This document shows positions 16,225 through 39,739 of a DNA stretch of 64,000 nt, piece after piece; position 1 is the stretch's first letter; every line of letters begins with the position of its first letter. The stretch is from positions 32,001-96,000 of IMG/VR virus record IMGVR_UViG_3300032257_000479; one strand, given 5' to 3'. A program made the translations under genes and the position numbers. The notes under the pieces were generated by a model, which made no database searches, was not told the DNA's origin, and saw nothing but the letters and a program-made list of their open reading frames with translations. The stretch comes from a virus.

Positions 16225-16437
16225 TTATCGTCCAACAACCGGAGGACCGCCCAGATTTACAACAAGAAGTCCTTCTTGAGCATAGTATTTGGTTAATTGG
16301 AACATAGCAGTCCCTCTATACCCTTGCCTTCCTTCTCTTACAGAATCCGCAACTTCGCCTTTATTCATTTCCGCTTCGGCCCTGTTCTTGCTTTTATTCT
16401 GTATACTTCTTGCTGAGTTTCTTCCTGATGCTGACAT
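16225..16437 (-). CDS. Small basic hypothetical protein
   Basis: 70 aa with an AAGGAG ribosome-binding site upstream. Fills the gap between two tail genes. Confidence 0.65.
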   Translation of the reverse strand: MSASGRNSARSIQNKSKNRAEAEMNKGEVADSVREGRQGYRGTAMFQLTKYYAQEGLLVVNLGGPPVVGR

Positions 16438-23663: not shown

Positions 23664-23671
23664 TTATCGCC
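23664..23671 (-). promoter_or_regulatory. Late-promoter-like motif GGCGATAA; its C lies 12 nt before the ATG (possibly leaderless)
   Basis: One of 12 intergenic NNCGAWWW copies. No SD between the motif and the ATG at 23657. Confidence 0.55.
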
Positions 23672-31564: not shown

Positions 31565-31572
31565 TTATCGAC
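31565..31572 (-). promoter_or_regulatory. Late-promoter-like motif GTCGATAA
   Basis: Upstream of the AGGAG RBS of the GT gene. Confidence 0.5.
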
Positions 31573-32085: not shown

Positions 32086-32997
32086 TTATGTAAGCTGAGG
32101 ATCGAGCCATCCGCCTGTTTCTTGTATTTCTTGTTCCCAAGCAAACCATTCAATTGTTGCTGCATGCAAAAAAGAACCCTTATGAATATGCCCATAATTA
32201 ATATTCGCTGGCCATGAATTGAAAATAAATCTATTAAGACCAATAATCTTTGAACTATCACCTGTTGAATACGAATTCATAAACGGTAGATGCAACTCTA
32301 TTGTTGTTGCATCTACAATACATTTAACTGAACTTTCTTCTGATCTATGAACATTTTCTATTAAAACGCTTTGATTTGGTTCGTAAATGCTACTATCGGC
32401 TACTTTTATAAACGTGTCACCCTGTATGTAGTCTGCCGTTAAATCTGATATATCAGTTTGCCCTATAAGAGGAAAAATGTTGTTCTTCAATCCCCTCTCA
32501 ATAGCTCCAGCTATTTTCAATAGAGATCTATATGATTTCTCATTTGATCCCTGCTTAACATAAACTGTAATCTGAAGCTTGTAATCCTCTTTTGTGCTTC
32601 CAAGAGTAAACCATTCCGATGATTTGCTTTCACCCATAACAGTTGCTGCAGGATATTTTGCTATAACATCAGGCTCTCCTATATAAATGCCCTCGAAGAA
32701 TCCACTATCAAAAGTTTTTCTAATAACAGTATCATCTGAGGTTGTCCAAACTTTTTCCCCTCTTACTCCAGCCTCAAGTTCTAATCTATTATTGTCAAGT
32801 ATATCTTTGACAAAAAGTCTAGGCTGATGAACGCCTGTGTCATACTGAACTAAAGCTAATTGATCTCCTACCTGCCATCTTTTAGTTGACTCAACTGTTA
32901 TTATTGTATCGTTTGGGTTAGCGTTTGTTAAAAGCGGCGACTGAGTATTAACCCAACGATAAACAATACGGCGAACTGATTCTAAAACATCAATCAT
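32086..32997 (-). CDS. Putative tail terminator/neck protein with two inserted beta modules
   Basis: Terminator-like core (GIYIGEPDVIAKYPAATV...YKLQITVYVK...AATIEWFA). Position between the adaptor and the tail tube. Confidence 0.55.
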   Translation of the reverse strand: MIDVLESVRRIVYRWVNTQSPLLTNANPNDTIITVESTKRWQVGDQLALVQYDTGVHQPRLFVKDILDNNRLELEAGVRGEKVWTTSDDTVIRKTFDSGFFEGIYIGEPDVIAKYPAATVMGESKSSEWFTLGSTKEDYKLQITVYVKQGSNEKSYRSLLKIAGAIERGLKNNIFPLIGQTDISDLTADYIQGDTFIKVADSSIYEPNQSVLIENVHRSEESSVKCIVDATTIELHLPFMNSYSTGDSSKIIGLNRFIFNSWPANINYGHIHKGSFLHAATIEWFAWEQEIQETGGWLDPQLT

Positions 32998-33236
32998 TAT
33001 ATATTATCCAGTAAGTCATCAATAATTCCGTCCAAAAAATAATCTTCTTCATCTTTAGAAACTTGAACTTTCTTTCCTTTTTTATAATCCCTTATTTGAG
33101 AATCCCTAAAGGCTTCTTTTTTTGTTTGAAAAACTTCATTAAACATTGGACTCATAACTTCTTTTGGGTCAACAGTTTGACCATCTAAAGATGAAAGTCT
33201 TTGAATCTTTCCAAATATTTCTTCAAAGTCTTCCAT
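32997..33236 (-). CDS. Small acidic hypothetical protein
   Basis: 79 aa, TAATG-coupled on both sides. Confidence 0.65.
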   Translation of the reverse strand: MEDFEEIFGKIQRLSSLDGQTVDPKEVMSPMFNEVFQTKKEAFRDSQIRDYKKGKKVQVSKDEEDYFLDGIIDDLLDNI

Positions 33237-33970
33237 TAATCAAGTTCATCCAAATTTCTACTAGAGTCATTTTCAACTGATGGCAATCTATACCTATCCC
33301 TAATATTTGAATTGATGAATCTATGACCTATTCTTTTTTGACCATGAAGAACAGTTCTTCCGTGAAGAACATTATTTAAATCCCGTCTAGCCATTTTTCT
33401 TAAATGCTTTCCATAATCGCTGACGTTTGGAGAGACTTCTGCTGTAAAATATTTATCAAAGATATTCGCCGCTGCCAGCCTGCATGAAATCAAAGATATG
33501 GCTGCTGGATATTTAACTCTTAAAACTCTTGTGTCTTCTACTGTATAAAGGCCAAGTAAAAAATCAGACAGCTCTATTGTATTATTATTTATTACAGCAT
33601 CAACAATATGTCGTTCTTGTTGAGTTGTATCAACAAACACAAGAACATCACCTGTATTGAGATTTCTACCTTTATCCAAATCAATATCTGATGAATACTC
33701 ATCAATATCTCGAAGCAAAGTTAATTGAAGATCTGTCTTTTCGCAAAAAGGAACAGAATACATTTGGCTAAGAGCTGCATCTATCTCTTCATCTGCCCAA
33801 AGTATATACTGGTCAACAAGAGATGTTGATATAGCGTTTGGCCTTATTGAATCACTAATTTCATAAAGAGGAACCACAGAATCATCAGTAGGATCTTCGA
33901 CGTTGTTCGTTGCTGTCGTAAGAGCCTGATTCATTATATTTAAAACTTCTTGGCGACTACAATATCCCAT
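33236..33970 (-). CDS. Head-tail connector (Mu gp36-like) with an inserted module
   Basis: MGYCS start; ILWADEEIDAALSQMYSVPF; ISLISCRLAAANIF. Confidence 0.65.
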   Translation of the reverse strand: MGYCSRQEVLNIMNQALTTATNNVEDPTDDSVVPLYEISDSIRPNAISTSLVDQYILWADEEIDAALSQMYSVPFCEKTDLQLTLLRDIDEYSSDIDLDKGRNLNTGDVLVFVDTTQQERHIVDAVINNNTIELSDFLLGLYTVEDTRVLRVKYPAAISLISCRLAAANIFDKYFTAEVSPNVSDYGKHLRKMARRDLNNVLHGRTVLHGQKRIGHRFINSNIRDRYRLPSVENDSSRNLDELD

Positions 33971-34008
33971 TTATCTGTTCCTCAAATTTGCATTATGTCT
34001 ATATTATG

Positions 34009-34036
34009 AATTCGACTTCTATTAGCCTTCTTCCTT
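34009..34036 (-). promoter_or_regulatory. Promoter-like motif AAGG-N18-CGAATT
   Basis: Upstream of the connector gene; same motif family. Confidence 0.4.
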
Positions 34037-35077
34037 CTTTGCTTTCGCTGCCTTATTCATAGCAACATTCGCTGAAACATAAAGACCCTCTACAACTGCG
34101 GTCCTTGGATTCTTTGCATGTCTGACTTCTTTTACTTCAAATGGGAGCTTAAGGTTCCCTATTATTTTTTCAACTTTTTCGCAAAAGCCCTTTGGCATAG
34201 ATGTTCCGCCTGCTATAACAATATCTAGCGGAGCCTCAAATGATGTTTTTTCTGCTGAAAATTTCTTTACAAAATGAGACAAAACATATCTGATTAACTG
34301 ATCATAATATGCATCTAAGGCAAATTGAACATCATCATCAAAATCAATGTTATTGAAGTCCAAAGACTTCTCTTTTACAGAGATTACTTGAGAGATTGGA
34401 ACGCCAGTCTGCTCCGATACCTGTCTATCAACCCAGTCTCCAGACCTTGCGACAGACATACCTACAACTGGAAGACCTCTGTAACAAAGAACGCAATTTG
34501 CTCTTCCTGCTCCAAAGCTCATACCGATGCCGCTATAAGCTATTTCTTTTCCGTCCTCAATAATCGTAGGACGCTCAGAGAGAACGACAGCATGTCCTTC
34601 CTCTATGATCTTTACTTGCCATCCCAAACGCCTATAGAGGGCCTCTAGCCTCTGCTTGTGGAACACGCTATCCTGAGATCCATCTACAGATTCTGATGAT
34701 ACGCATGAACAAACCCACGAATTATCATCTGTAGCTCGACCAACTGTTGATTCTATGATTTCAGAAAGAACAACAAGCTTCTTATCTTCGTTCTTGTTGA
34801 GAACACCATCCGACATTGGTCTTCGGACTTCAACTTTCCCTGGAAGAATATTTGCAACTTGCATTGCATCATCTCCAATAACATAATAGACATTATCATC
34901 TTTTATGTATTGCCATTCATTCCTCAAAAGAATGTCGTCCACTCCCTCAGAATCAGCTAATTCAACGAAAGCGTTTCTTACTGATATAAAAGAAAGTCCC
35001 TCTTGACCATCTTTCTTTTCCGCGGATTGAAAAAACATTGTTCCTGGGTCTAACCCTACTGCTCTACTTGTCATCAT
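34022..35077 (-). CDS. Actin-like ATPase (volactin/MreB/MamK superfamily)
   Basis: Phosphate-1 GLDPGT, RRPMSDGVL, connect-1 IIEEGHAV, phosphate-2 GMSFGAGRAN, SGDWVD, adenosine IVIAGGTSMPKGF, connect-2 AVVEG. Confidence 0.9.
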   Translation of the reverse strand: MMTSRAVGLDPGTMFFQSAEKKDGQEGLSFISVRNAFVELADSEGVDDILLRNEWQYIKDDNVYYVIGDDAMQVANILPGKVEVRRPMSDGVLNKNEDKKLVVLSEIIESTVGRATDDNSWVCSCVSSESVDGSQDSVFHKQRLEALYRRLGWQVKIIEEGHAVVLSERPTIIEDGKEIAYSGIGMSFGAGRANCVLCYRGLPVVGMSVARSGDWVDRQVSEQTGVPISQVISVKEKSLDFNNIDFDDDVQFALDAYYDQLIRYVLSHFVKKFSAEKTSFEAPLDIVIAGGTSMPKGFCEKVEKIIGNLKLPFEVKEVRHAKNPRTAVVEGLYVSANVAMNKAAKAKKEEG

Positions 35078-35090
35078 TGTTCCCTTCTAT

Positions 35091-35681
35091 TCATAGCATG
35101 TCTTCAAGTTCGCTAATATTATCGTCTGCATCAGAAGAACCTAACTCTTCATTGTGACTAATATTGGACTCTGTATCCTTAACTATTCTGTTTATTGATC
35201 TTTCATGTATATCGACAGCTTTTTCGTCTTCAATTTCATATTCCGCTGTATTATTTTGTTTTTGTGAAATATTACCTGAAGCAATATCCTGCAAAGATTC
35301 AATAGCATTTTTTAGCATGTTAGCGTTTTCTTCATTAATACCGCCCGACGAAGAGACCTGCTTTTCAACCTGGTTATCCAATCTGGCACCAAGTCTTTTT
35401 TCCATATCCCTGAGAGCTTTCATTACATCATCGGATTGATCTAAAGTTTTTACAGGTTTTGCTTTTTGTGCTATTGGTTGCGTTTCATTGTTTCCCAAAG
35501 GATTATCTTTTCTAACAAGACGCAAAGCTCCACGCTTTAAAGCTATTCTAAGATCTCTGGATTGTTCAACAACATACCTCGCTGCAAAATGATCTAAGTC
35601 AGCTTGCTTTGATGGTTTTATCGTAGCTCTCAGGTCCCCAAGAGCTATCTCATGACGAGTCATGTTTTGAACTATATACAA
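35091..35681 (-). CDS. Putative adaptor protein: small N-terminal domain shared with GT 54315..55715, a helical segment and an acidic tail
   Basis: TTG start directly after the upstream TAA. N-terminus VQNMTRHEIALGDL...SRDLRIALKRGALRLV. Confidence 0.65.
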   Translation of the reverse strand: MYIVQNMTRHEIALGDLRATIKPSKQADLDHFAARYVVEQSRDLRIALKRGALRLVRKDNPLGNNETQPIAQKAKPVKTLDQSDDVMKALRDMEKRLGARLDNQVEKQVSSSGGINEENANMLKNAIESLQDIASGNISQKQNNTAEYEIEDEKAVDIHERSINRIVKDTESNISHNEELGSSDADDNISELEDML

Positions 35682-35885
35682 TTATCTTCTCCGATTTCTT
35701 GGTCTATTAAGAGTTGTAGACTTCGGTAGTCTTTGCTGTATTTCGCCATCTTTAGATATATCTATCTTATTCTCTTTTTTGCACTCTGGACATATCCAAT
35801 ACATTTTATTGTCCGCGAAATTAATCTCAACGACAGGTTCATGTTCGTGGTGCCTGCAAAACTTGCATACGCATACTATTTTCAA
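35682..35885 (-). CDS. Small zinc-ribbon protein with a basic tail
   Basis: CKFC...CPEC; C-terminal RPRNRRR. Confidence 0.7.
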   Translation of the reverse strand: MKIVCVCKFCRHHEHEPVVEINFADNKMYWICPECKKENKIDISKDGEIQQRLPKSTTLNRPRNRRR

Positions 35886-38308
35886 AGCGTCCCCAATCCA
35901 TTGATCATGTCATTCCTTATGGATGTTTTTATTTCATCTAACTTATTGGTTGATGAGAATTTTGACATCGCAGACGATAGTTTTGTTAGATCAAACATTC
36001 TGCCAATAGCTGTTCTTATTATGCTCAACTGTCTGTTGAAGCTTGCTCTATGAATATCATCTAAATCAAGAAGCTGCTTGTAGTAATCCTGAGCAACACC
36101 TGAAACGTTGCTTCTTCTTTTAATCTCTTGCTCAATAATACTGTTCGCTATCTGTCTTAGCTGACTATCTTCCATTTGCGTTATTTGTTGCGATGAAAAT
36201 CCTTGAGGAAGTGGTAATCCCATTTCATTTATAAAGTCAGAAGATAAATCCATCACCTTGCTACTATCTAAAGATTGTATTGAATCTACTGGCACTCCAA
36301 TATCAATTTTTTTTGATTTATCTTTTAACAATTTTCTTCTTGCCTTATCTCCAGATGGGCCAGGATCCGTAATTGTTTCATATTCTTTCATTTTCCCAAA
36401 AACCAACTCTTGCCTTGTTCTTTTTCCAGTTTCGCTATTTTCTGAAAGCAACGCACCAACTTCTTTGACATTCTTGTGTGTTGTAATCAAATCTAAATAT
36501 GAAAATAAAACATTTTTAGGATATTTTTTAACAACTTCATCTGAAACAAGATACTCGCCTATCTGTGTTAACATTTGATTCATTTGATCATGAAGAGTTT
36601 TACTTTTCTTCAATTTTGCAACCATCTCCTGTTTGTATTCAGGATCATTGGCCATTCTCTCTCTATCTATTTTATTTGATCCAAGCTGGCTCACTTGCTG
36701 TAAGTCATGCAAATAAGAGTCAGGTTGAGCATTCGGATCGCTTGAAATCATGTTATCAATCCATATATTCAACTTTTCATCCAAAGGAAGCATTTTGGAA
36801 AAATCGATAGAATCCCAAGTATTACCCTCGGAAGGTTTCATTATAACTCTTCCATTCTCTACCTTAAATGTTGCCTTCCCTTTTCTTTCTAAGTCTTTTA
36901 ATTTCTTAGGATCTGAAAATGCATCAGAGCCAACAAGCGAATCTATTATTTTTGCGGCTTGGTCAGGCCAAAACTCTGAAGCTATTGTTTTTGAAAACCA
37001 CTTTCCGCCTGGGGCAAAATTGGGATTCTTTTCAGAAAGCTCATTAACTATATGTTCTCTAACATCTTTCCCTAGAAATTTCAATGTTTGACCCATGGAC
37101 TGAAGATCGCCTTTGTATGCATCCATAATTGTAGATCTTTGATCTTGAGACAATTCAGGTTCATTGCCTTGCAATTGCTCCCTTCTAAGATCTACGCCAT
37201 GATCAACTTGAGTTCCCTCGCTATTTGCTGCGTATTGTTGAGATTCGTAACCTGTGCCCATCACATCTGAGCCGATCTTACTCATTACCCAGTCCCAAAC
37301 TTTTGCTTTTACTTCTTCGTTGTCGTCACCAAGAATGCCATAAAGAGTTCCTGTAACGGAATCAATATCTTGGGCAAGATTCATGTATGTTTCTTTGTTG
37401 TTCCCAAAAGACCCTGAAGTCATCAAAGAGGAAACCGATTCGGGCAGCATGCCAATAGAAGAAAGCCATGAAGCATTTTCTATAAAAAACTTTATTCTAA
37501 AATCTTCTTTATTTCCGCCTGAAGAACTGTAACCGCCCTCAACGCCCCTGAATACTCTGCTTTTCAGTATACTATCAATATCGCTGTCAGGAAATTTCAT
37601 CTGAATCTCTTTCCATCTTTTAATGGATGAACTCTCTTCTTCCTGAAAATCTTGATCGCCCATATCTGGCTCTAATAAATAATTCTCCATAAATGCTTGA
37701 GTTAAATCCTCAGCAGATATACCTCCAACATTTTGCTCATCTTCTTGCCAATGCTCTTCACCAAAACTCTCTTGTTCTCCAACGATTTGATCATACAGTG
37801 CCTGATTTCTTTGATTCTCTGTTATTTCCAACGGCAAACCTTGTTCACCTTGATTTAAAACAATTTGCTCTATATCTCGCCTTGATAAGTCAGGAAAATG
37901 ATTTGACAATTCCTGAGGTGAAGCAGCATTCCCTGGAATTGAATTTCTTGCATTCTCTATAGATTCATAAAACATATCTTCATTTAATTCACTCATCCAG
38001 TAATCTAAGCCATCATTTGATAACATTAACTCCAAATCCGTGAAACTTTGGGATTCAGGAAGTCTTCTTAATAGCCAATTTTCCATATCTGCTCGAAGAT
38101 TTGCTCGTTCAGCATTTTCTTTTGCTCTTTGCCCTTGACTTCCATTGTATACTGGAGTCTGTATTGGAACTGGAGCCTGTGTTGGAACTGGGGAAGCAGG
38201 AAAGGTTACTGGAGCAGGATCTGCCAATGGTTTAACAACTGTTGGCTGAAGCTGCTGAGAAGTCCTACTTATTCCAATTCTTTTTAGTATTCTAATATAA
38301 AATGACAT
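35882..38308 (-). CDS. Large hypothetical protein, possibly an internal head protein
   Basis: 808 aa, with a Pro/Thr-rich segment after a short basic/aromatic leader and an acidic helical body. Confidence 0.55.
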   Translation of the reverse strand: MSFYIRILKRIGISRTSQQLQPTVVKPLADPAPVTFPASPVPTQAPVPIQTPVYNGSQGQRAKENAERANLRADMENWLLRRLPESQSFTDLELMLSNDGLDYWMSELNEDMFYESIENARNSIPGNAASPQELSNHFPDLSRRDIEQIVLNQGEQGLPLEITENQRNQALYDQIVGEQESFGEEHWQEDEQNVGGISAEDLTQAFMENYLLEPDMGDQDFQEEESSSIKRWKEIQMKFPDSDIDSILKSRVFRGVEGGYSSSGGNKEDFRIKFFIENASWLSSIGMLPESVSSLMTSGSFGNNKETYMNLAQDIDSVTGTLYGILGDDNEEVKAKVWDWVMSKIGSDVMGTGYESQQYAANSEGTQVDHGVDLRREQLQGNEPELSQDQRSTIMDAYKGDLQSMGQTLKFLGKDVREHIVNELSEKNPNFAPGGKWFSKTIASEFWPDQAAKIIDSLVGSDAFSDPKKLKDLERKGKATFKVENGRVIMKPSEGNTWDSIDFSKMLPLDEKLNIWIDNMISSDPNAQPDSYLHDLQQVSQLGSNKIDRERMANDPEYKQEMVAKLKKSKTLHDQMNQMLTQIGEYLVSDEVVKKYPKNVLFSYLDLITTHKNVKEVGALLSENSETGKRTRQELVFGKMKEYETITDPGPSGDKARRKLLKDKSKKIDIGVPVDSIQSLDSSKVMDLSSDFINEMGLPLPQGFSSQQITQMEDSQLRQIANSIIEQEIKRRSNVSGVAQDYYKQLLDLDDIHRASFNRQLSIIRTAIGRMFDLTKLSSAMSKFSSTNKLDEIKTSIRNDMINGLGTL

Positions 38309-38353
38309 ATTTACCTCTGCTTTATGAAAAATGACATCATGTTCAGAATATAT

Positions 38354-38427
38354 TTTTCGATAATTTCAATGAATAATCCTTGAATAATATCTATTCTATC
38401 AAGCAATGATTATAAATAGTTATCGGC
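38354..38427 (-). promoter_or_regulatory. Two promoter-like motifs: GCCGATAA (38420-38427) and AAGG-N18-CGAAAA (38354-38381)
   Basis: GCCGATAA is an exact sigma28 -10 consensus. Both lie in the intergenic gap before 35882..38308. Confidence 0.5.
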
Positions 38428-38429
38428 AA

Positions 38430-39326
38430 TTACACTGATTCTTCGTCGCAATCGCAATCTTCTTCGTCGCAATCGCAATATTCCCAATCCCCAGATTCTT
38501 CCATTATATCATCAAATTCGCCTGCCTCAAGCAATGAATCATGCGTTGATTTGGTATCTTCGACATCGTTCTGGTCATCTTCAATGTAATCGTCATCTTC
38601 CTCGTCTCGATAAGCTTCATCAATAACTGTTACAATCTCTTCTCTCACGCACCATTCGTGACCTAGATCAACCATCCCAACTGCGGGTATGTGAGACAGC
38701 CTTTTTATTGCATCCTTTAAACCGTTATATCTTTCTCTTCTTAAACCAAGATCGCTTTGCTCAACATCTCCTGTCATTATTATTTTGGAGCCAGAACCAA
38801 GACGTGTTAGCAATAGGTGTATCTGCTTCTTTGTCATGTTTTGGCATTCATCAGCAATAACGCAAGAGTTCTTAAAAGTAACACCTCTCATGTAAGCAAT
38901 TGGTAAAACTATAATAGTTTTATCTTCTATTCTTTTCCTTAAATCATCTGGACTTAAATATTGAAGAATTATTTCATTCATTGGGAACATGTAAGGAGCA
39001 AGCTTCTGTTCTGCATCGCCTGGCAAAAAACCTAAAGACTCTCCAGCCTCAACAACAGGTCTAGTGAGAATAATTTTATCAAATCTACCGTTAACAAGCT
39101 CTTGCAAAGCCCAACCTACAGCCAAGTGTGTTTTCCCCGTACCAGGAACACCCTGAATAACAGTTACTTGTTTTTGAGAAATAGTTCTTAACGCATCTTT
39201 TTGTCCTGCGTTCATTGCTGAAACTGTAACAACTCGCTTAGATGATGATTTTTCTTTTCCCATAGTATTTTTGTTAACCTTTTTCTTTTTGGTATTATGA
39301 TTTTTGGTATTATGCTTTTTTCTCAT
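38430..39326 (-). CDS. phoH: PhoH-family ATPase
   Basis: GVPGTGKT, IILTRP, LGFLPGD, YMRGVTF, DECQN, LLTRLG and GDVEQSD motifs. Confidence 0.95.
   Translation of the reverse strand: MRKKHNTKNHNTKKKKVNKNTMGKEKSSSKRVVTVSAMNAGQKDALRTISQKQVTVIQGVPGTGKTHLAVGWALQELVNGRFDKIILTRPVVEAGESLGFLPGDAEQKLAPYMFPMNEIILQYLSPDDLRKRIEDKTIIVLPIAYMRGVTFKNSCVIADECQNMTKKQIHLLLTRLGSGSKIIMTGDVEQSDLGLRRERYNGLKDAIKRLSHIPAVGMVDLGHEWCVREEIVTVIDEAYRDEEDDDYIEDDQNDVEDTKSTHDSLLEAGEFDDIMEESGDWEYCDCDEEDCDCDEESV
38439..38480. repeat. 21-bp tandem duplication in the PhoH C-terminus
   Basis: ttcttcgtcgcaatcgcaat[c/a] x2, encoding YCDCDEE-DCDCDEE. Confidence 0.9.
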
Positions 39327-39739
39327 TTATGCTTTTCCCTGGATGAAACAAGTAAATAATGTTCATCTCCTGATGGTTCAATCTTTATTCCTTCCAATAC
39401 ATTCCATTTATCTTTTAGAGAATAACTTGAAAATATGTCAGTTATATATTTCCAAAATGATTTCCTAACTTTTTTTGTTTCACCAGATAATATCCTTATT
39501 CTTAATAAAATAAGGTCTTCCCCAAAATCTTCTTTTATTACATCAACGAGTGAATCTATCTCATTTCTAATAAATAGATCTTCCCATCCTTCAGCGCTTC
39601 TGGCTTTTATTAATCTTTTGCGTTCTTGGTTGGGTATGCTATCCATTAATTTAGATCTTTGCAATGATGAGAGAGGTCGTGTTAAAAAATAAAACTCTTG
39701 AAAATTCTTAAAAACTCTTCTACTCATAAACGCCTCCAT
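39323..39739 (-). CDS. Hypothetical protein
   Basis: 138 aa. The start is probably MSRR, after a GGAGG RBS. ATGA overlap with phoH. Confidence 0.65.
   Translation of the reverse strand: MEAFMSRRVFKNFQEFYFLTRPLSSLQRSKLMDSIPNQERKRLIKARSAEGWEDLFIRNEIDSLVDVIKEDFGEDLILLRIRILSGETKKVRKSFWKYITDIFSSYSLKDKWNVLEGIKIEPSGDEHYLLVSSREKHK

What the first reader, a model, noticed from the sequence alone, without database searches (positions are those of the whole stretch)
34022..35885. Actin-like filament module (Zn-ribbon + adaptor + volactin-like ATPase) inside the head-tail gene cluster
Seen: three coupled genes ending in an actin-fold ATPase with all nucleotide-binding motifs, directly before the head-tail connector gene. 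From memory, its motif string (RNAFVE, GDDA, RRPM, FH, EGHAV..SE, GMSFGAG, SVARSGDWVD, GGTS.PKGF) matches haloarchaeal volactin better than MreB or ParM. The adjacent 196-aa protein has a small N-terminal domain, a helical middle and an acidic tail, and the 67-aa Zn-ribbon has a basic tail. Known: nucleus-forming jumbo phages move capsids on tubulin (PhuZ). Inference: an actin-based counterpart that positions or transports capsids or the packaging site late in infection.
Basis: partly seen in the sequence, partly recalled or inferred. Interest (0 to 1): 0.78.

Follow-up and report, generated by a model that had tools for sequence, protein, structure and literature searches.

The report
Huge-phage actin with docking adaptor
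A fragment of a roughly half-megabase uncultured marine phage carries its own well-conserved actin gene and a phage-only partner protein predicted to plug its tail into that actin; the genes always sit between the head and neck genes, so these phages probably build their own actin filaments while assembling virions, which no paper I could search describes.

Summary
Three coupled minus-strand genes encode a 67-aa four-Cys Zn-ribbon, a 196-aa protein (MID) and a 351-aa actin.

- **Actin identity.** It matches Pfam Volactin over its full length (1e-63, 216 bits). It folds confidently (pLDDT 89.5) and resembles MreB, BeeR, MamK and actin.
- **Genome.** The record is about 25% of a huge phage. Complete relatives are 488-499 kb with terminal repeats and one actin each. 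They show no tubulin, integrase or ParB.
- **Synteny.** The order PhoH, large protein, Zn-ribbon, MID, actin, Mu-Gp36-like adaptor, p303 and glycosyltransferase holds in all 18 related viral contigs. The actin-adaptor-p303 core persists down to about 35% actin identity.
- **Adaptor.** Co-folding places MID's invariant C-terminal ELE[G/D]LL tail in the actin's IA/IIA cleft (ipSAE 0.70; best control 0.01). This is how ParR docks on ParM.
- **Partition rival.** No centromere-like repeats lie nearby.
- **Constraint.** Inteins and homing endonucleases repeatedly target the gene.

My reading is a late, phage-encoded actin filament system with an end-binding adaptor. Its cargo (capsid or packaging complex versus phage DNA) is not determined.

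This scan has already found the same module on at least six other genomes. The searchable literature does not describe it.

The parts
34022..35077 (-). Volactin-family actin-fold ATPase, 351 aa
   Evidence: Pfam PF25216 at 1e-63 and 216 bits, full length. AF2 pLDDT 89.5, pTM 0.89. Foldseek top hits are MreB, BeeR, MamK and actin at E about 1e-13. Family-wide invariant residues are D10 G12 T13, G189 G191, G213 D214, G290 G291 and G331, with E160 nearly invariant. It is 66-76% identical in 488-499 kb relatives.
35091..35681 (-). MID196, the candidate filament adaptor: N-terminal domain of about 60 aa, helical segments, disordered linkers, invariant C-terminal ELE[G/D]LL tail
   Evidence: Alignment A4. 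AF2 gives pLDDT about 92 for the N-domain and helices separated by low-confidence linkers. Co-fold with the actin: ipSAE 0.70 against a best control of 0.01, with the interface on MID residues 152-196. No Pfam or PHROG family. One copy per genome.
35682..35885 (-). ZN67: four-Cys Zn-ribbon with a conserved basic C-terminal tail (P-[KR]-x-R-R)
   Evidence: C7, C10, C32 and C35 are invariant in 14 sequences. Homologues lie beside distant actins in L102, L103 and L110. It has only sub-threshold Pfam and PHROG hits.
35882..38308 (-). p808: large, poorly conserved protein that is positionally conserved and translationally coupled to the trio; function unknown
   Evidence: A 4-nt stop/start overlap with ZN67 is seen here, and an overlap occurs in all relatives examined. 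Relatives of 750-1034 aa share an N-terminal M-x-F-[FY]-R helix, a Pro-rich stretch and a C-terminal SMSKFA motif. No Pfam, PHROG or PDB match.
33236..33970 (-). Mu-Gp36-like (DUF1320) head-tail adaptor candidate, the gene that always follows the actin
   Evidence: PF07030 at 24.2 bits (cut-off 24.7), with 8 of 12 family members hitting. PHROG head-tail adaptor hit is weak. The A6 profile finds it directly after the actin in L102, L103, L108, L109 and L110.
32086..32997 (-). p303: conserved neck/tail-region protein that follows the adaptor
   Evidence: The A7 profile finds homologues downstream of every phage-type actin examined, at 1e-15 to 1e-126. Two members hit a PHROG 'tail assembly protein' family.
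38420..38427 (-). GCCGATAA word between the PhoH stop and the p808 start: candidate promoter element for the p808-ZN-MID-actin unit
   Evidence: GNCGATAA occurs 12 times in the window against 5.7 expected, 10 of the 12 on the coding strand. A G-N-CGATA word lies 99-151 nt upstream of the p808 homologue in 6 of 9 loci. Promoter activity is not shown.
35119..35126 (-). GACGATAA word inside the 3' end of MID, 42 nt before the actin ATG: possible internal promoter, or simply the D-D-N codons
   Evidence: An NNCGATA word lies 44 to 71 nt before the actin ATG in 8 of 15 loci. It overlaps conserved D-[KN] codons, so it cannot be separated from protein constraint.

Best explanation
The window encodes a phage-borne cytomotive actin system, most likely expressed with the virion-morphogenesis genes.

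- **Filament.** The 351-aa Volactin-family actin binds and hydrolyses ATP and polymerises. My odds: actin-fold ATPase about 0.97; filament former about 0.75.
- **Adaptor.** MID196 docks its invariant C-terminal ELE[G/D]LL peptide, together with the preceding helix, into the groove between actin subdomains IA and IIA. This is the barbed-end pocket that ParR uses on ParM, so MID would sit at a filament end or on monomers (about 0.65). Its unique N-terminal domain, perhaps with the Zn-ribbon protein, would hold a cargo.
- **Cargo (inferred).** The module is fixed between the head genes and the Mu-Gp36-like adaptor and neck genes across very divergent phages. No centromere, integrase or ParB accompanies it. 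The cargo is therefore most likely an assembly intermediate, such as filled heads, the portal vertex or the packaging complex, that must be positioned in the cell (about 0.35). Phage DNA is the main alternative.

Shown here: family membership, the fold, synteny, conservation, the predicted interface, and the absence of partition hallmarks. Inferred: polymerisation, timing and cargo.
For: - **Family and fold.** Pfam Volactin at 1e-63, full length. Confident actin fold that matches MreB, BeeR, MamK and actin rather than Hsp70 or sugar kinases. The canonical motif residues are invariant across a 29-sequence alignment averaging 36% column identity.
- **Copy number.** One copy in each of two complete terminal-repeat genomes of 488 and 499 kb.
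- **Conservation.** The actin is 66-76% identical between genomes whose MCP is 81-93% identical, while PhoH, adaptor, p303, GT and MID are 30-61%.
- **Homing elements.** Inteins occupy at least 3 sites around the phosphate-2 loop in relatives, and a free-standing LAGLIDADG endonuclease sits just upstream in 6 loci. This is typical of constrained core genes.
- **Synteny.** The gene order is identical in 18 of 18 viral loci. The actin-adaptor-p303 core, with a tail tube or GT nearby, is kept in L102, L103, L108, L109 and L110 at about 34-40% actin identity.
- **Docking.** MID-actin co-fold ipSAE is 0.70 against a best control of 0.01. The mark was reached by 58 of 80 solved complexes and by 2 of 110 mismatched pairs. 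The runs share at least 55% of contacts and the partner pLDDT is at least 61. The contacts fall on the invariant tail. ParR's tail binds the equivalent ParM pocket (PMC5016525).
- **Phage-only partners.** MID and ZN are absent beside 80 bacterial Volactin loci.
- **Operon structure.** The genes are translationally coupled, and a strand-biased promoter-like word lies upstream.
Against: - There is no experimental data on polymerisation, expression timing or localisation. No cultured phage in 50,697 records has the gene.
- The adaptor's N-domain has no recognisable fold or family. The best match is YqbF at Z 3.9, which is not significant. The cargo is therefore a guess from gene order.
- The co-fold is a model's confidence, made with my own alignments, and a ParM-ParR peptide complex exists in the PDB.
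- The head-tail adaptor label of the neighbour is itself weak: 24.2 bits against a cut-off of 24.7.
- One phage-type relative (L105) has the actin next to a Holliday-junction resolvase and a PD-(D/E)XK nuclease instead of neck genes. This points towards DNA.
- Some cellular family members are fused to ParB-HTH DNA-binding domains.
- The promoter-like word has a different geometry from that proposed elsewhere in this genome, and it is found in only 6 of 9 relatives.
Confidence: 0.5

Rival explanations
1. This is a DNA-positioning system of the AlpAC/ParMRC type. The cargo is phage DNA (replicating genomes or the packaging substrate), bound by the basic-tailed Zn-ribbon or the MID N-domain. The actin filament moves or anchors it, for example at the membrane or at packaging sites.
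For: - The layout matches ParR/ParM and AlpA/AlpC: an actin plus a small adaptor whose C-terminal tail is predicted to sit in the barbed-end pocket (PMC5016525; PMC4446434).
- ZN67 has a conserved Arg/Lys tail.
- Relative L105 places the actin beside a Holliday-junction resolvase and a PD-(D/E)XK nuclease.
- Cellular family members exist as ParB-HTH fusions.
- Salactin, another haloarchaeal actin, aids DNA partitioning (PMC10869688 discussion).
Against: - No iterated repeats or centromere-like array lie within 33000-39500, and the intergenic gaps are only 13-121 nt.
- Complete relatives have no integrase or ParB_N and end in direct terminal repeats.
- AlpAC are early genes at a prophage end, whereas this module is embedded in and co-oriented with structural genes over deep divergence.
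- MID's N-domain shows no RHH or HTH signature.
Confidence: 0.25
2. The actin remodels the host. Like MreB or volactin in cells, it would change cell shape, size or envelope synthesis so that the host can hold very large virions, or it would time lysis. MID would then act as a regulator or membrane tether rather than a cargo adaptor.
For: Volactin in Haloferax affects the rod-to-disk transition, and its filaments touch the membrane by their tips (PMC10869688). Huge capsids are large relative to marine cells (general knowledge). p808 begins with an amphipathic-looking helix followed by a Pro-rich linker, which could be a membrane anchor. That last point is speculation.
Against: Host-takeover genes in phages are usually early and poorly conserved. 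This gene is fixed inside the morphogenesis block and is the second-best conserved gene there. No membrane-binding element is evident in the actin itself. MreB Pfam membership fails.
Confidence: 0.1
3. The protein is a non-polymerising actin-fold ATPase. It would act as an assembly chaperone or clamp in head completion or head-tail joining, with MID as its co-chaperone or substrate-delivery factor.
For: The actin fold also serves Hsp70, FtsA-like and kinase functions (Bork et al. 1992, cited in PMC4446434). The strict position next to the head-tail adaptor gene fits an assembly factor. The phosphate-2 Asp is replaced by Ser family-wide, giving SFGAG.
Against: Structural neighbours are all filament formers, and no Hsp70 or kinase appears in the top 50. 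The founding family member forms dynamic filaments in vivo (PMC10869688). The level of sequence conservation is typical of polymer-forming proteins, but that is an inference.
Confidence: 0.1

Closest known systems
Volactin (VolA, HVO_2015) of Haloferax volcanii; Pfam PF25216 (Schiller et al. 2024, PMC10869688)
   Same: The actin scores 216 bits over the full length of the same Pfam family. Haloarchaeal homologues are 34-36% identical. In the tree they fall on the same side of the midpoint root as the phage clade (SH-aLRT 94). Volactin forms dynamic, ParM-like filaments in vivo.
   Different: The phage proteins form their own clade (SH-aLRT 99), separate from the haloarchaeal and the Planctomycetota/Omnitrophota clades. 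They are encoded in a virion-morphogenesis operon with phage-only partners. Volactin's role is cell shape, and no adaptor is known for it. The VolA sequence itself was not available to me for direct comparison.
ParMRC type II plasmid partition (ParM actin, ParR adaptor, parC centromere)
   Same: Both pair an actin-like ATPase with a small adaptor. The adaptor's C-terminal tail is predicted to bind the hydrophobic barbed-end pocket (PMC5016525).
   Different: There is no ParM-family sequence match. The adaptor lies upstream rather than downstream and is unrelated to the RHH protein ParR. There is no centromere array. The element is a lytic-looking 0.5-Mb phage genome with terminal repeats, not a plasmid. 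A Zn-ribbon is an extra component.
AlpC/AlpA of the Corynebacterium glutamicum prophage CGP3 (PMC4446434, PMC5539076)
   Same: Both are virus-encoded actins co-transcribed with an upstream adaptor that binds the filament. This is the only experimentally studied phage actin I could find.
   Different: AlpC belongs to a different actin family. AlpA binds 24 alpS DNA repeats at its own promoter. Both genes are early genes at the prophage edge and promote DNA replication. Here there are no repeats, the setting is structural-operon, and the host element is a huge virulent-type phage.
PhuZ/TubZ tubulin spindle of nucleus-forming jumbo phages (Chimalliviridae; PMC13282480, PMC4244570)
   Same: Both are phage-encoded cytoskeletal polymers in very large phages, and PhuZ is thought to organise replication and capsid delivery.
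   Different: PhuZ has a tubulin fold, not an actin fold. No tubulin is found in complete relatives. PhuZ has no known dedicated end-binding adaptor gene next to it and is not embedded in the neck operon.
MreB / MamK / BeeR bacterial actins
   Same: These are the closest solved structures, with Foldseek E about 1e-13 and TM 0.6-0.7.
   Different: Sequence identity is only 15-18%. The MreB Pfam score is below its cut-off. Phosphate-2 reads S-F-G-A-G instead of D-x-G-G-G.

Membership tests
Pfam Volactin (PF25216) | Profile score above the curated cut-off over the whole domain | tested here: met
   216.2 bits against a cut-off of 35, covering profile positions 2-321 of 321. The same holds in the own-genome six-frame search.
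Pfam Volactin (PF25216) | Actin fold with phosphate-1, connect-1, phosphate-2, adenosine and connect-2 motifs | tested here: met
   AF2 pLDDT is 89.5, and the top structural matches are MreB, BeeR, MamK and actin. D10/G12/T13, E160, G189/G191, G290/G291 and G331 are conserved family-wide.
Pfam Volactin (PF25216) | Orthology with Haloferax volcanii VolA in the narrow sense | tested here: inconclusive
   Haloarchaeal homologues on megaplasmids are 34-36% identical. They form a separate clade near, but outside, the phage-type clade. The VolA sequence itself was not to hand.
Pfam Volactin (PF25216) | Dynamic filament formation in vivo | not testable with these tools
   Needs protein expression and microscopy or pelleting.
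ParMRC type II partition system | ParM-family actin | tested here: not met
   No ParM-type Pfam family at E <= 0.01; only Volactin and a sub-threshold MreB hit.
ParMRC type II partition system | Adaptor docks its C-terminal tail in the actin's barbed-end pocket | tested here: met
   This is an in-silico result only. ipSAE is 0.70 against a best control of 0.01. MID residues 188-196 contact actin residues 166-169, 180-181, 200-202 and 331-342. I inferred the mapping to the IA/IIA cleft from the fold topology.
ParMRC type II partition system | Centromere of iterated repeats next to the operon | tested here: not met
   No intergenic repeat array lies within 33000-39500. The only tandem repeats are inside the PhoH and p808 coding sequences.
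ParMRC type II partition system | Carried by a low-copy plasmid or plasmid-prophage | tested here: not met
   Complete relatives have direct terminal repeats and no integrase or ParB_N. In PLSDB only 5 haloarchaeal megaplasmids carry the family.
AlpAC (CGP3 prophage actin system) | Adaptor binds DNA repeats at its own promoter; early expression | tested here: inconclusive
   No repeats were found. DNA binding and timing cannot be tested here. The operon context argues for late expression.
MreB/Mbl (PF06723) | Profile score above the curated cut-off | tested here: not met
   22.7 bits against a cut-off of 27, and only a partial match to residues 61-218.
PhuZ/TubZ phage tubulin | Tubulin/FtsZ fold GTPase | tested here: not met
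   The protein has an actin fold. No PF00091 match was found in G000-G003.

The most novel reading that the evidence does not exclude
A widespread lineage of huge phages that do not use tubulin runs an actin-based virion assembly line. Filaments grow from, or are capped by, an end-tracking adaptor (MID, with the Zn-ribbon protein and possibly p808) that holds DNA-filled heads or the packaging vertex. The filaments deliver these to the site where necks and tails are joined. This would be an actin counterpart of PhuZ-mediated capsid trafficking, evolved independently and fixed inside the neck operon.
Probability: 0.3. Interest if true: 0.85.

Novelty: new variant of a known kind. Interest (0 to 1): 0.72.

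Why it matters
Phage cytoskeletons are so far known from tubulin (PhuZ/TubZ) in nucleus-forming jumbo phages and from a single prophage actin (AlpC).

Here an actin of a different family is a conserved, single-copy, near-core gene of a large group of about 0.5-Mb environmental phages. There are hundreds of metagenomic homologues. It has its own phage-specific adaptor and a fixed place among the head-tail joining genes.

If it polymerises and carries virion intermediates, intracellular transport by virus-encoded actin would be a general solution for very large phages. It would also supply a minimal two- or three-protein actin/end-binder system for biophysics.

The work further shows that the Volactin family is not a haloarchaeal speciality. 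It is abundant in Planctomycetota and Omnitrophota and has entered phages more than once.

The recent jumbo-phage reviews and comparative papers that I searched do not mention any of this.

Tried and rejected
- PHROGs gave no family for the actin or MID, only a sub-threshold Lar-like hit for ZN67, and nothing for p808.
- Megablast of 10 kb against 50,697 phage records found no match.
- The PDB sequence search with the actin gave only marginal MamK and MreB hits at E 0.04-0.1.
- PDB profile searches gave nothing significant: a DUF1320 chain at E 0.18 for the adaptor profile, and no usable hit for p303 or p808.
- The MID model found no significant match by Foldseek or by VIA wide. The hits were helical hairpins at Z about 5, and YqbF for the N-domain at Z 3.9 with rmsd 2.8 over 51 residues. 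I do not count these as evidence.
- The search for related loci with the very diverse alignment A2 failed for lack of a conserved stretch.
- Picking haloarchaeal representatives by acidic composition was misleading. P0203 and P0206 group with Planctomycetota. The organism behind L107 stayed unnamed.
- I searched 80 Planctomycetota/Omnitrophota loci for MID, ZN, adaptor and p303 homologues. Nothing scored below E 0.04.
- I judged the CGATA word before the actin ATG inseparable from codon conservation.
- Derman et al. 2009, on Alp families that include phage-borne ones, is not held in the library. What I say about it rests on my own memory.
Full report
**What is there**

The window is bases 32001-96000 of a 169.5-kb IMG/VR virus record. 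CheckV rates the record about 25% complete. It encodes a major head protein, a prohead protease, a PhoH-like ATPase, a minor tail protein, several glycosyltransferases and a run of 1,100-2,500-aa proteins, almost all on the minus strand.

At the finding's coordinates there are exactly the three ORFs described:
- ZN67 at 35682-35885.
- MID196 at 35091-35681.
- A 351-aa protein at 34022-35077.

The three genes are tightly packed. The stop of the upstream 808-aa gene overlaps the ZN67 start by 4 nt. The ZN67 stop abuts the MID start. Thirteen bases with a GAAGGGA ribosome-binding site separate MID from the actin.

**The actin**

Family membership:
- Pfam's Volactin model (PF25216) matches from end to end at 1e-63 and 216 bits, against a cut-off of 35.
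- MreB_Mbl reaches only 22.7 bits, below its cut-off. No ParM-type family appears.

Fold:
- With a 26-sequence alignment, AlphaFold2 gives a confident actin fold (pLDDT 89.5, pTM 0.89).
- The best PDB neighbours are all filament formers: MreB, BeeR, MamK and eukaryotic actin, at E about 1e-13 and 12-18% identity.

Motifs:
- In an alignment with a mean column identity of 36%, the canonical nucleotide-binding residues stay invariant. These are D10-G12-T13, G189-G191, G290-G291 and G331, and E160 is nearly invariant.
- The family also has its own hallmarks: R34, R86, H140, G213-D214 and K235.
- The phosphate-2 Asp is Ser throughout the family (S-F-G-A-G).

**How common and how conserved**

- A word-based search finds 496 homologues. 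The top 120 are all at least 57% identical, and many lie on contigs of 170-498 kb.
- An exhaustive search of 50%-identity cluster representatives gives 815 hits, 226 of them below 1e-30.
- Two complete relatives with direct terminal repeats (488 and 499 kb) and a 98%-complete one (494 kb) each hold exactly one copy.
- Between these genomes and the window the major capsid protein is 81-93% identical and the actin 66-76%. PhoH, the adaptor-like protein, p303, the glycosyltransferase and MID are 30-61% identical.
- Homing elements target the gene. Close and distant relatives carry inteins with LAGLIDADG or HNH endonucleases at three or more sites, all around the phosphate-2 loop: GxS|xGAG, just after GAGx, and before SGDW.
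- Six loci have a free-standing LAGLIDADG endonuclease wedged between MID and the actin.
- This is the pattern of a functionally constrained core gene, not of a passenger.

**Synteny**

In all 18 related IMG/VR loci the order is PhoH, large protein, ZN67, MID, actin, 244-aa protein, small ORF, p303, (p165), glycosyltransferase.

The 244-aa protein is a weak but consistent Mu-Gp36/DUF1320 head-tail adaptor candidate. It scores 24.2 bits against a cut-off of 24.7, 8 of 12 family members hit the family, and a DUF1320 chain is the top PDB hit at E 0.18.

I followed actins that are only 34-40% identical to their contigs. Profiles of the 244-aa protein and of p303 again hit the genes right after the actin (1e-13 to 1e-101), with a tail-tube gene or glycosyltransferase a few genes on. 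The partners are less constant:
- ZN67 homologues are present in three of these contigs.
- The MID N-domain is present in four.
- One relative (L105) differs. Its actin is followed by a Holliday-junction resolvase-like gene and a PD-(D/E)XK gene.

**The partners**

MID has no Pfam or PHROG family. Its alignment shows:
- a conserved N-terminal domain of about 60 residues;
- three helical segments;
- a variable low-complexity linker;
- an invariant C-terminal ...N-I-x-E-L-E-[G/D]-L-L.

AlphaFold2 models the N-domain with pLDDT about 92, as four strands, two helices and one strand. The rest is helices joined by disordered linkers. The N-domain is single-copy per genome and resembles nothing significantly.

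ZN67 has four invariant cysteines and a conserved basic P-[KR]-x-R-R tail.

The large upstream protein (750-1034 aa in relatives) is poorly conserved in sequence. It always overlaps the ZN67 start, and relatives share an N-terminal helix, a Pro-rich stretch and a C-terminal SMSKFA motif. The coupled unit is therefore probably four genes.

**Does MID bind the actin?**

Co-folding of the two proteins, each with its alignment, gave these results:
- The median ipSAE was 0.70 against 0.01 for the best of three controls.
- That mark was reached by 58 of 80 solved complexes and by 2 of 110 mismatched pairs.
- The runs share at least 55% of their contacts, and the partner's pLDDT is at least 61.
- The confident interface is MID 152-196, the last helix-linker-helix including the invariant tail.
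- The lowest-error pairs put MID 188-193 against actin 166-169, 180-181, 200-202 and 331-342.

By the actin-fold topology these actin residues are the end of the connect-1 helix, subdomain-IIA strands and the C-terminal helix. Together they form the groove between subdomains IA and IIA. This mapping is my inference from the secondary-structure order.

ParR's C-terminal tail binds the equivalent hydrophobic pocket of ParM, in the manner of barbed-end binders of actin (PMC5016525).

The result is a model's confidence, not a measurement. A ParM-ParR peptide complex exists in the PDB, although there is no sequence likeness to it.

**Tests of the partition alternative**

- The region 33000-39500 has no iterated repeats outside coding sequence, and the intergenic gaps are 13, 51 and 121 nt.
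- Complete relatives have no tyrosine integrase, ParB_N or tubulin.
- No cultured phage among 50,697 records carries a detectable homologue. Only two uncultured huge phages do, at 27-29% identity.
- In PLSDB only five haloarchaeal megaplasmids carry the family.
- AlpC/AlpA, the one studied phage actin system, is an early-expressed pair at a prophage edge, and its adaptor binds 24 DNA repeats (PMC4446434). None of this is seen here.
- The cargo could still be DNA. ZN67's basic tail, the L105 context and ParB-HTH fusions among cellular family members keep that rival alive.

**Timing**

I have no expression data, so the argument rests on operon structure.
- In the window GNCGATAA occurs 12 times against 5.7 expected, and 10 of the 12 are on the coding strand.
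- One copy lies between the PhoH stop and the p808 start.
- A G-N-CGATA word lies 99-151 nt upstream of the p808 homologue in 6 of 9 loci.
- This is suggestive only. A second copy 42 nt before the actin ATG overlaps conserved Asp-Lys/Asn codons and cannot be interpreted.

**Phylogeny**

I built an IQ-TREE tree of 112 sequences (LG+C20+F+G4 PMSF, SH-aLRT support, midpoint root for drawing only). A FastTree run agreed.
- The window's huge-phage group (support 100) sits inside a 29-row clade (support 99).
- Every context-checked member of that clade is a phage-like contig.
- Three haloarchaeal sequences form their own clade (support 99) on the same side of the root (support 94).
- The Planctomycetota/Omnitrophota chromosomal proteins form the other side (support 99). 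There are at least 570 such loci in species genomes.
- The two GenBank huge-phage actins fall on the bacterial side, so phages acquired the family more than once.
- MID, ZN67, adaptor and p303 homologues are absent from the flanks of 80 bacterial loci.

**Literature**

Volactin was described in 2024 as a dynamic actin that affects Haloferax shape (PMC10869688). I searched a 2026 jumbo-phage review (PMC13282480), the comparative genomics of 224 jumbo phages (PMC7824862) and the marine jumbo-phage survey (PMC9123017). None mentions an actin homologue. No held paper contains 'PF25216'.

From memory, Derman et al. 2009 listed Alp families on phages. That paper is not held in the library.

This scan has flagged the same module on at least six other genomes, and two earlier follow-ups reached much the same reading. 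I ran my tests before reading those notes.

**Verdict**

The identification as a Volactin-family actin with a dedicated docking adaptor is well supported in silico. The module's place in virion morphogenesis is supported by deep synteny. Polymerisation, timing and cargo remain inferences.

It is a new variant of the known actin-plus-adaptor theme (ParMR, AlpAC), set in a new place: the neck operon of huge phages.

Noticed in passing
relatives P0131, P0133, P0134, P0143, P0144, P0148, P0154, P0184, P0199-P0205, P0215, P0224, P0254 (no intein in the window's own gene): At least 16 of the top 150 family representatives are 700-800 aa because inteins (Hint plus LAGLIDADG or HNH) interrupt the actin. 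There are three or more distinct insertion sites, all in the nucleotide-binding core: GxS|C..HN|CGAG, after GAGx, and SVAR|C...|SGDW. I know of no report of inteins in an actin-family protein.
   Followed up: partly
L002:5289-6011, L006:434-1246, L007:5181-6008, L008:5190-6014, L010:5205-6014, L011:5193-6008: A free-standing LAGLIDADG_2 homing endonuclease gene of 240-275 aa is inserted between MID and the actin in six related phages. It breaks the otherwise tight coupling of the two genes.
   Followed up: partly
P0166, P0167, P0208, P0137; L107:5001-7770: Cellular Volactin-family proteins come in unexpected architectures. These include an N-terminal ParB-HTH fused to Volactin, and Volactin fused to Wzz and a BY-kinase-like P-loop domain in a Planctomycetota MAG. 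There is also a tandem double actin in one polypeptide, and two adjacent paralogues in an acidic (halophile-like) genome.
   Followed up: no
L022-L101 (genome contigs): The Volactin family is abundant in Planctomycetota and Omnitrophota, phyla with unusual cell biology. At least 570 loci encode a relative in species-representative genomes. The family is therefore not a haloarchaeal speciality.
   Followed up: partly
window 38439-38480 (-), 3' end of the PhoH gene: A 21-nt tandem duplication encodes a Cys/Asp/Glu-rich tail (..CDCDEEDCDCDEE..) on the PhoH-like ATPase. This is an unusual metal-binding-looking appendix.
   Followed up: no
window 38151-38186 (-), 5' part of p808: An 18-nt tandem repeat encodes the P-V-P-x-Q-x units of the Pro-rich stretch that follows p808's N-terminal helix.
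   Followed up: no
window-wide; e.g. 16225-16232, 23664-23671, 31565-31572, 38420-38427 (-): GNCGATAA occurs 12 times against 5.7 expected, and 10 of the 12 are on the coding strand. Several copies lie just upstream of gene starts, which fits the promoter-like word noted elsewhere in this genome.
   Followed up: partly
G003 (IMGVR_UViG_3300005681_000225, 494 kb; locus L013): IMG/VR labels this 98%-complete relative a 'provirus', yet no tyrosine integrase was found in it. Its close kin end in direct terminal repeats, so the label may be an artefact.
   Followed up: partly
L110:1075-2755: An IS200/IS605 pair (Y1 transposase plus OrfB/TnpB) sits a few kb upstream of the actin module in a distant phage-like contig.
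   Followed up: no
L020 (LR745208.1) and L021 (LR756511.1): Two published huge phages of 485 and 595 kb carry Volactin-family actins that group with bacterial, not phage-type, sequences. They lack the adaptor-p303 context. The ORF upstream of the LR745208 actin nevertheless shows a MID-like AEQSRDLK signature, though the profile E-value is only 0.15.
   Followed up: partly
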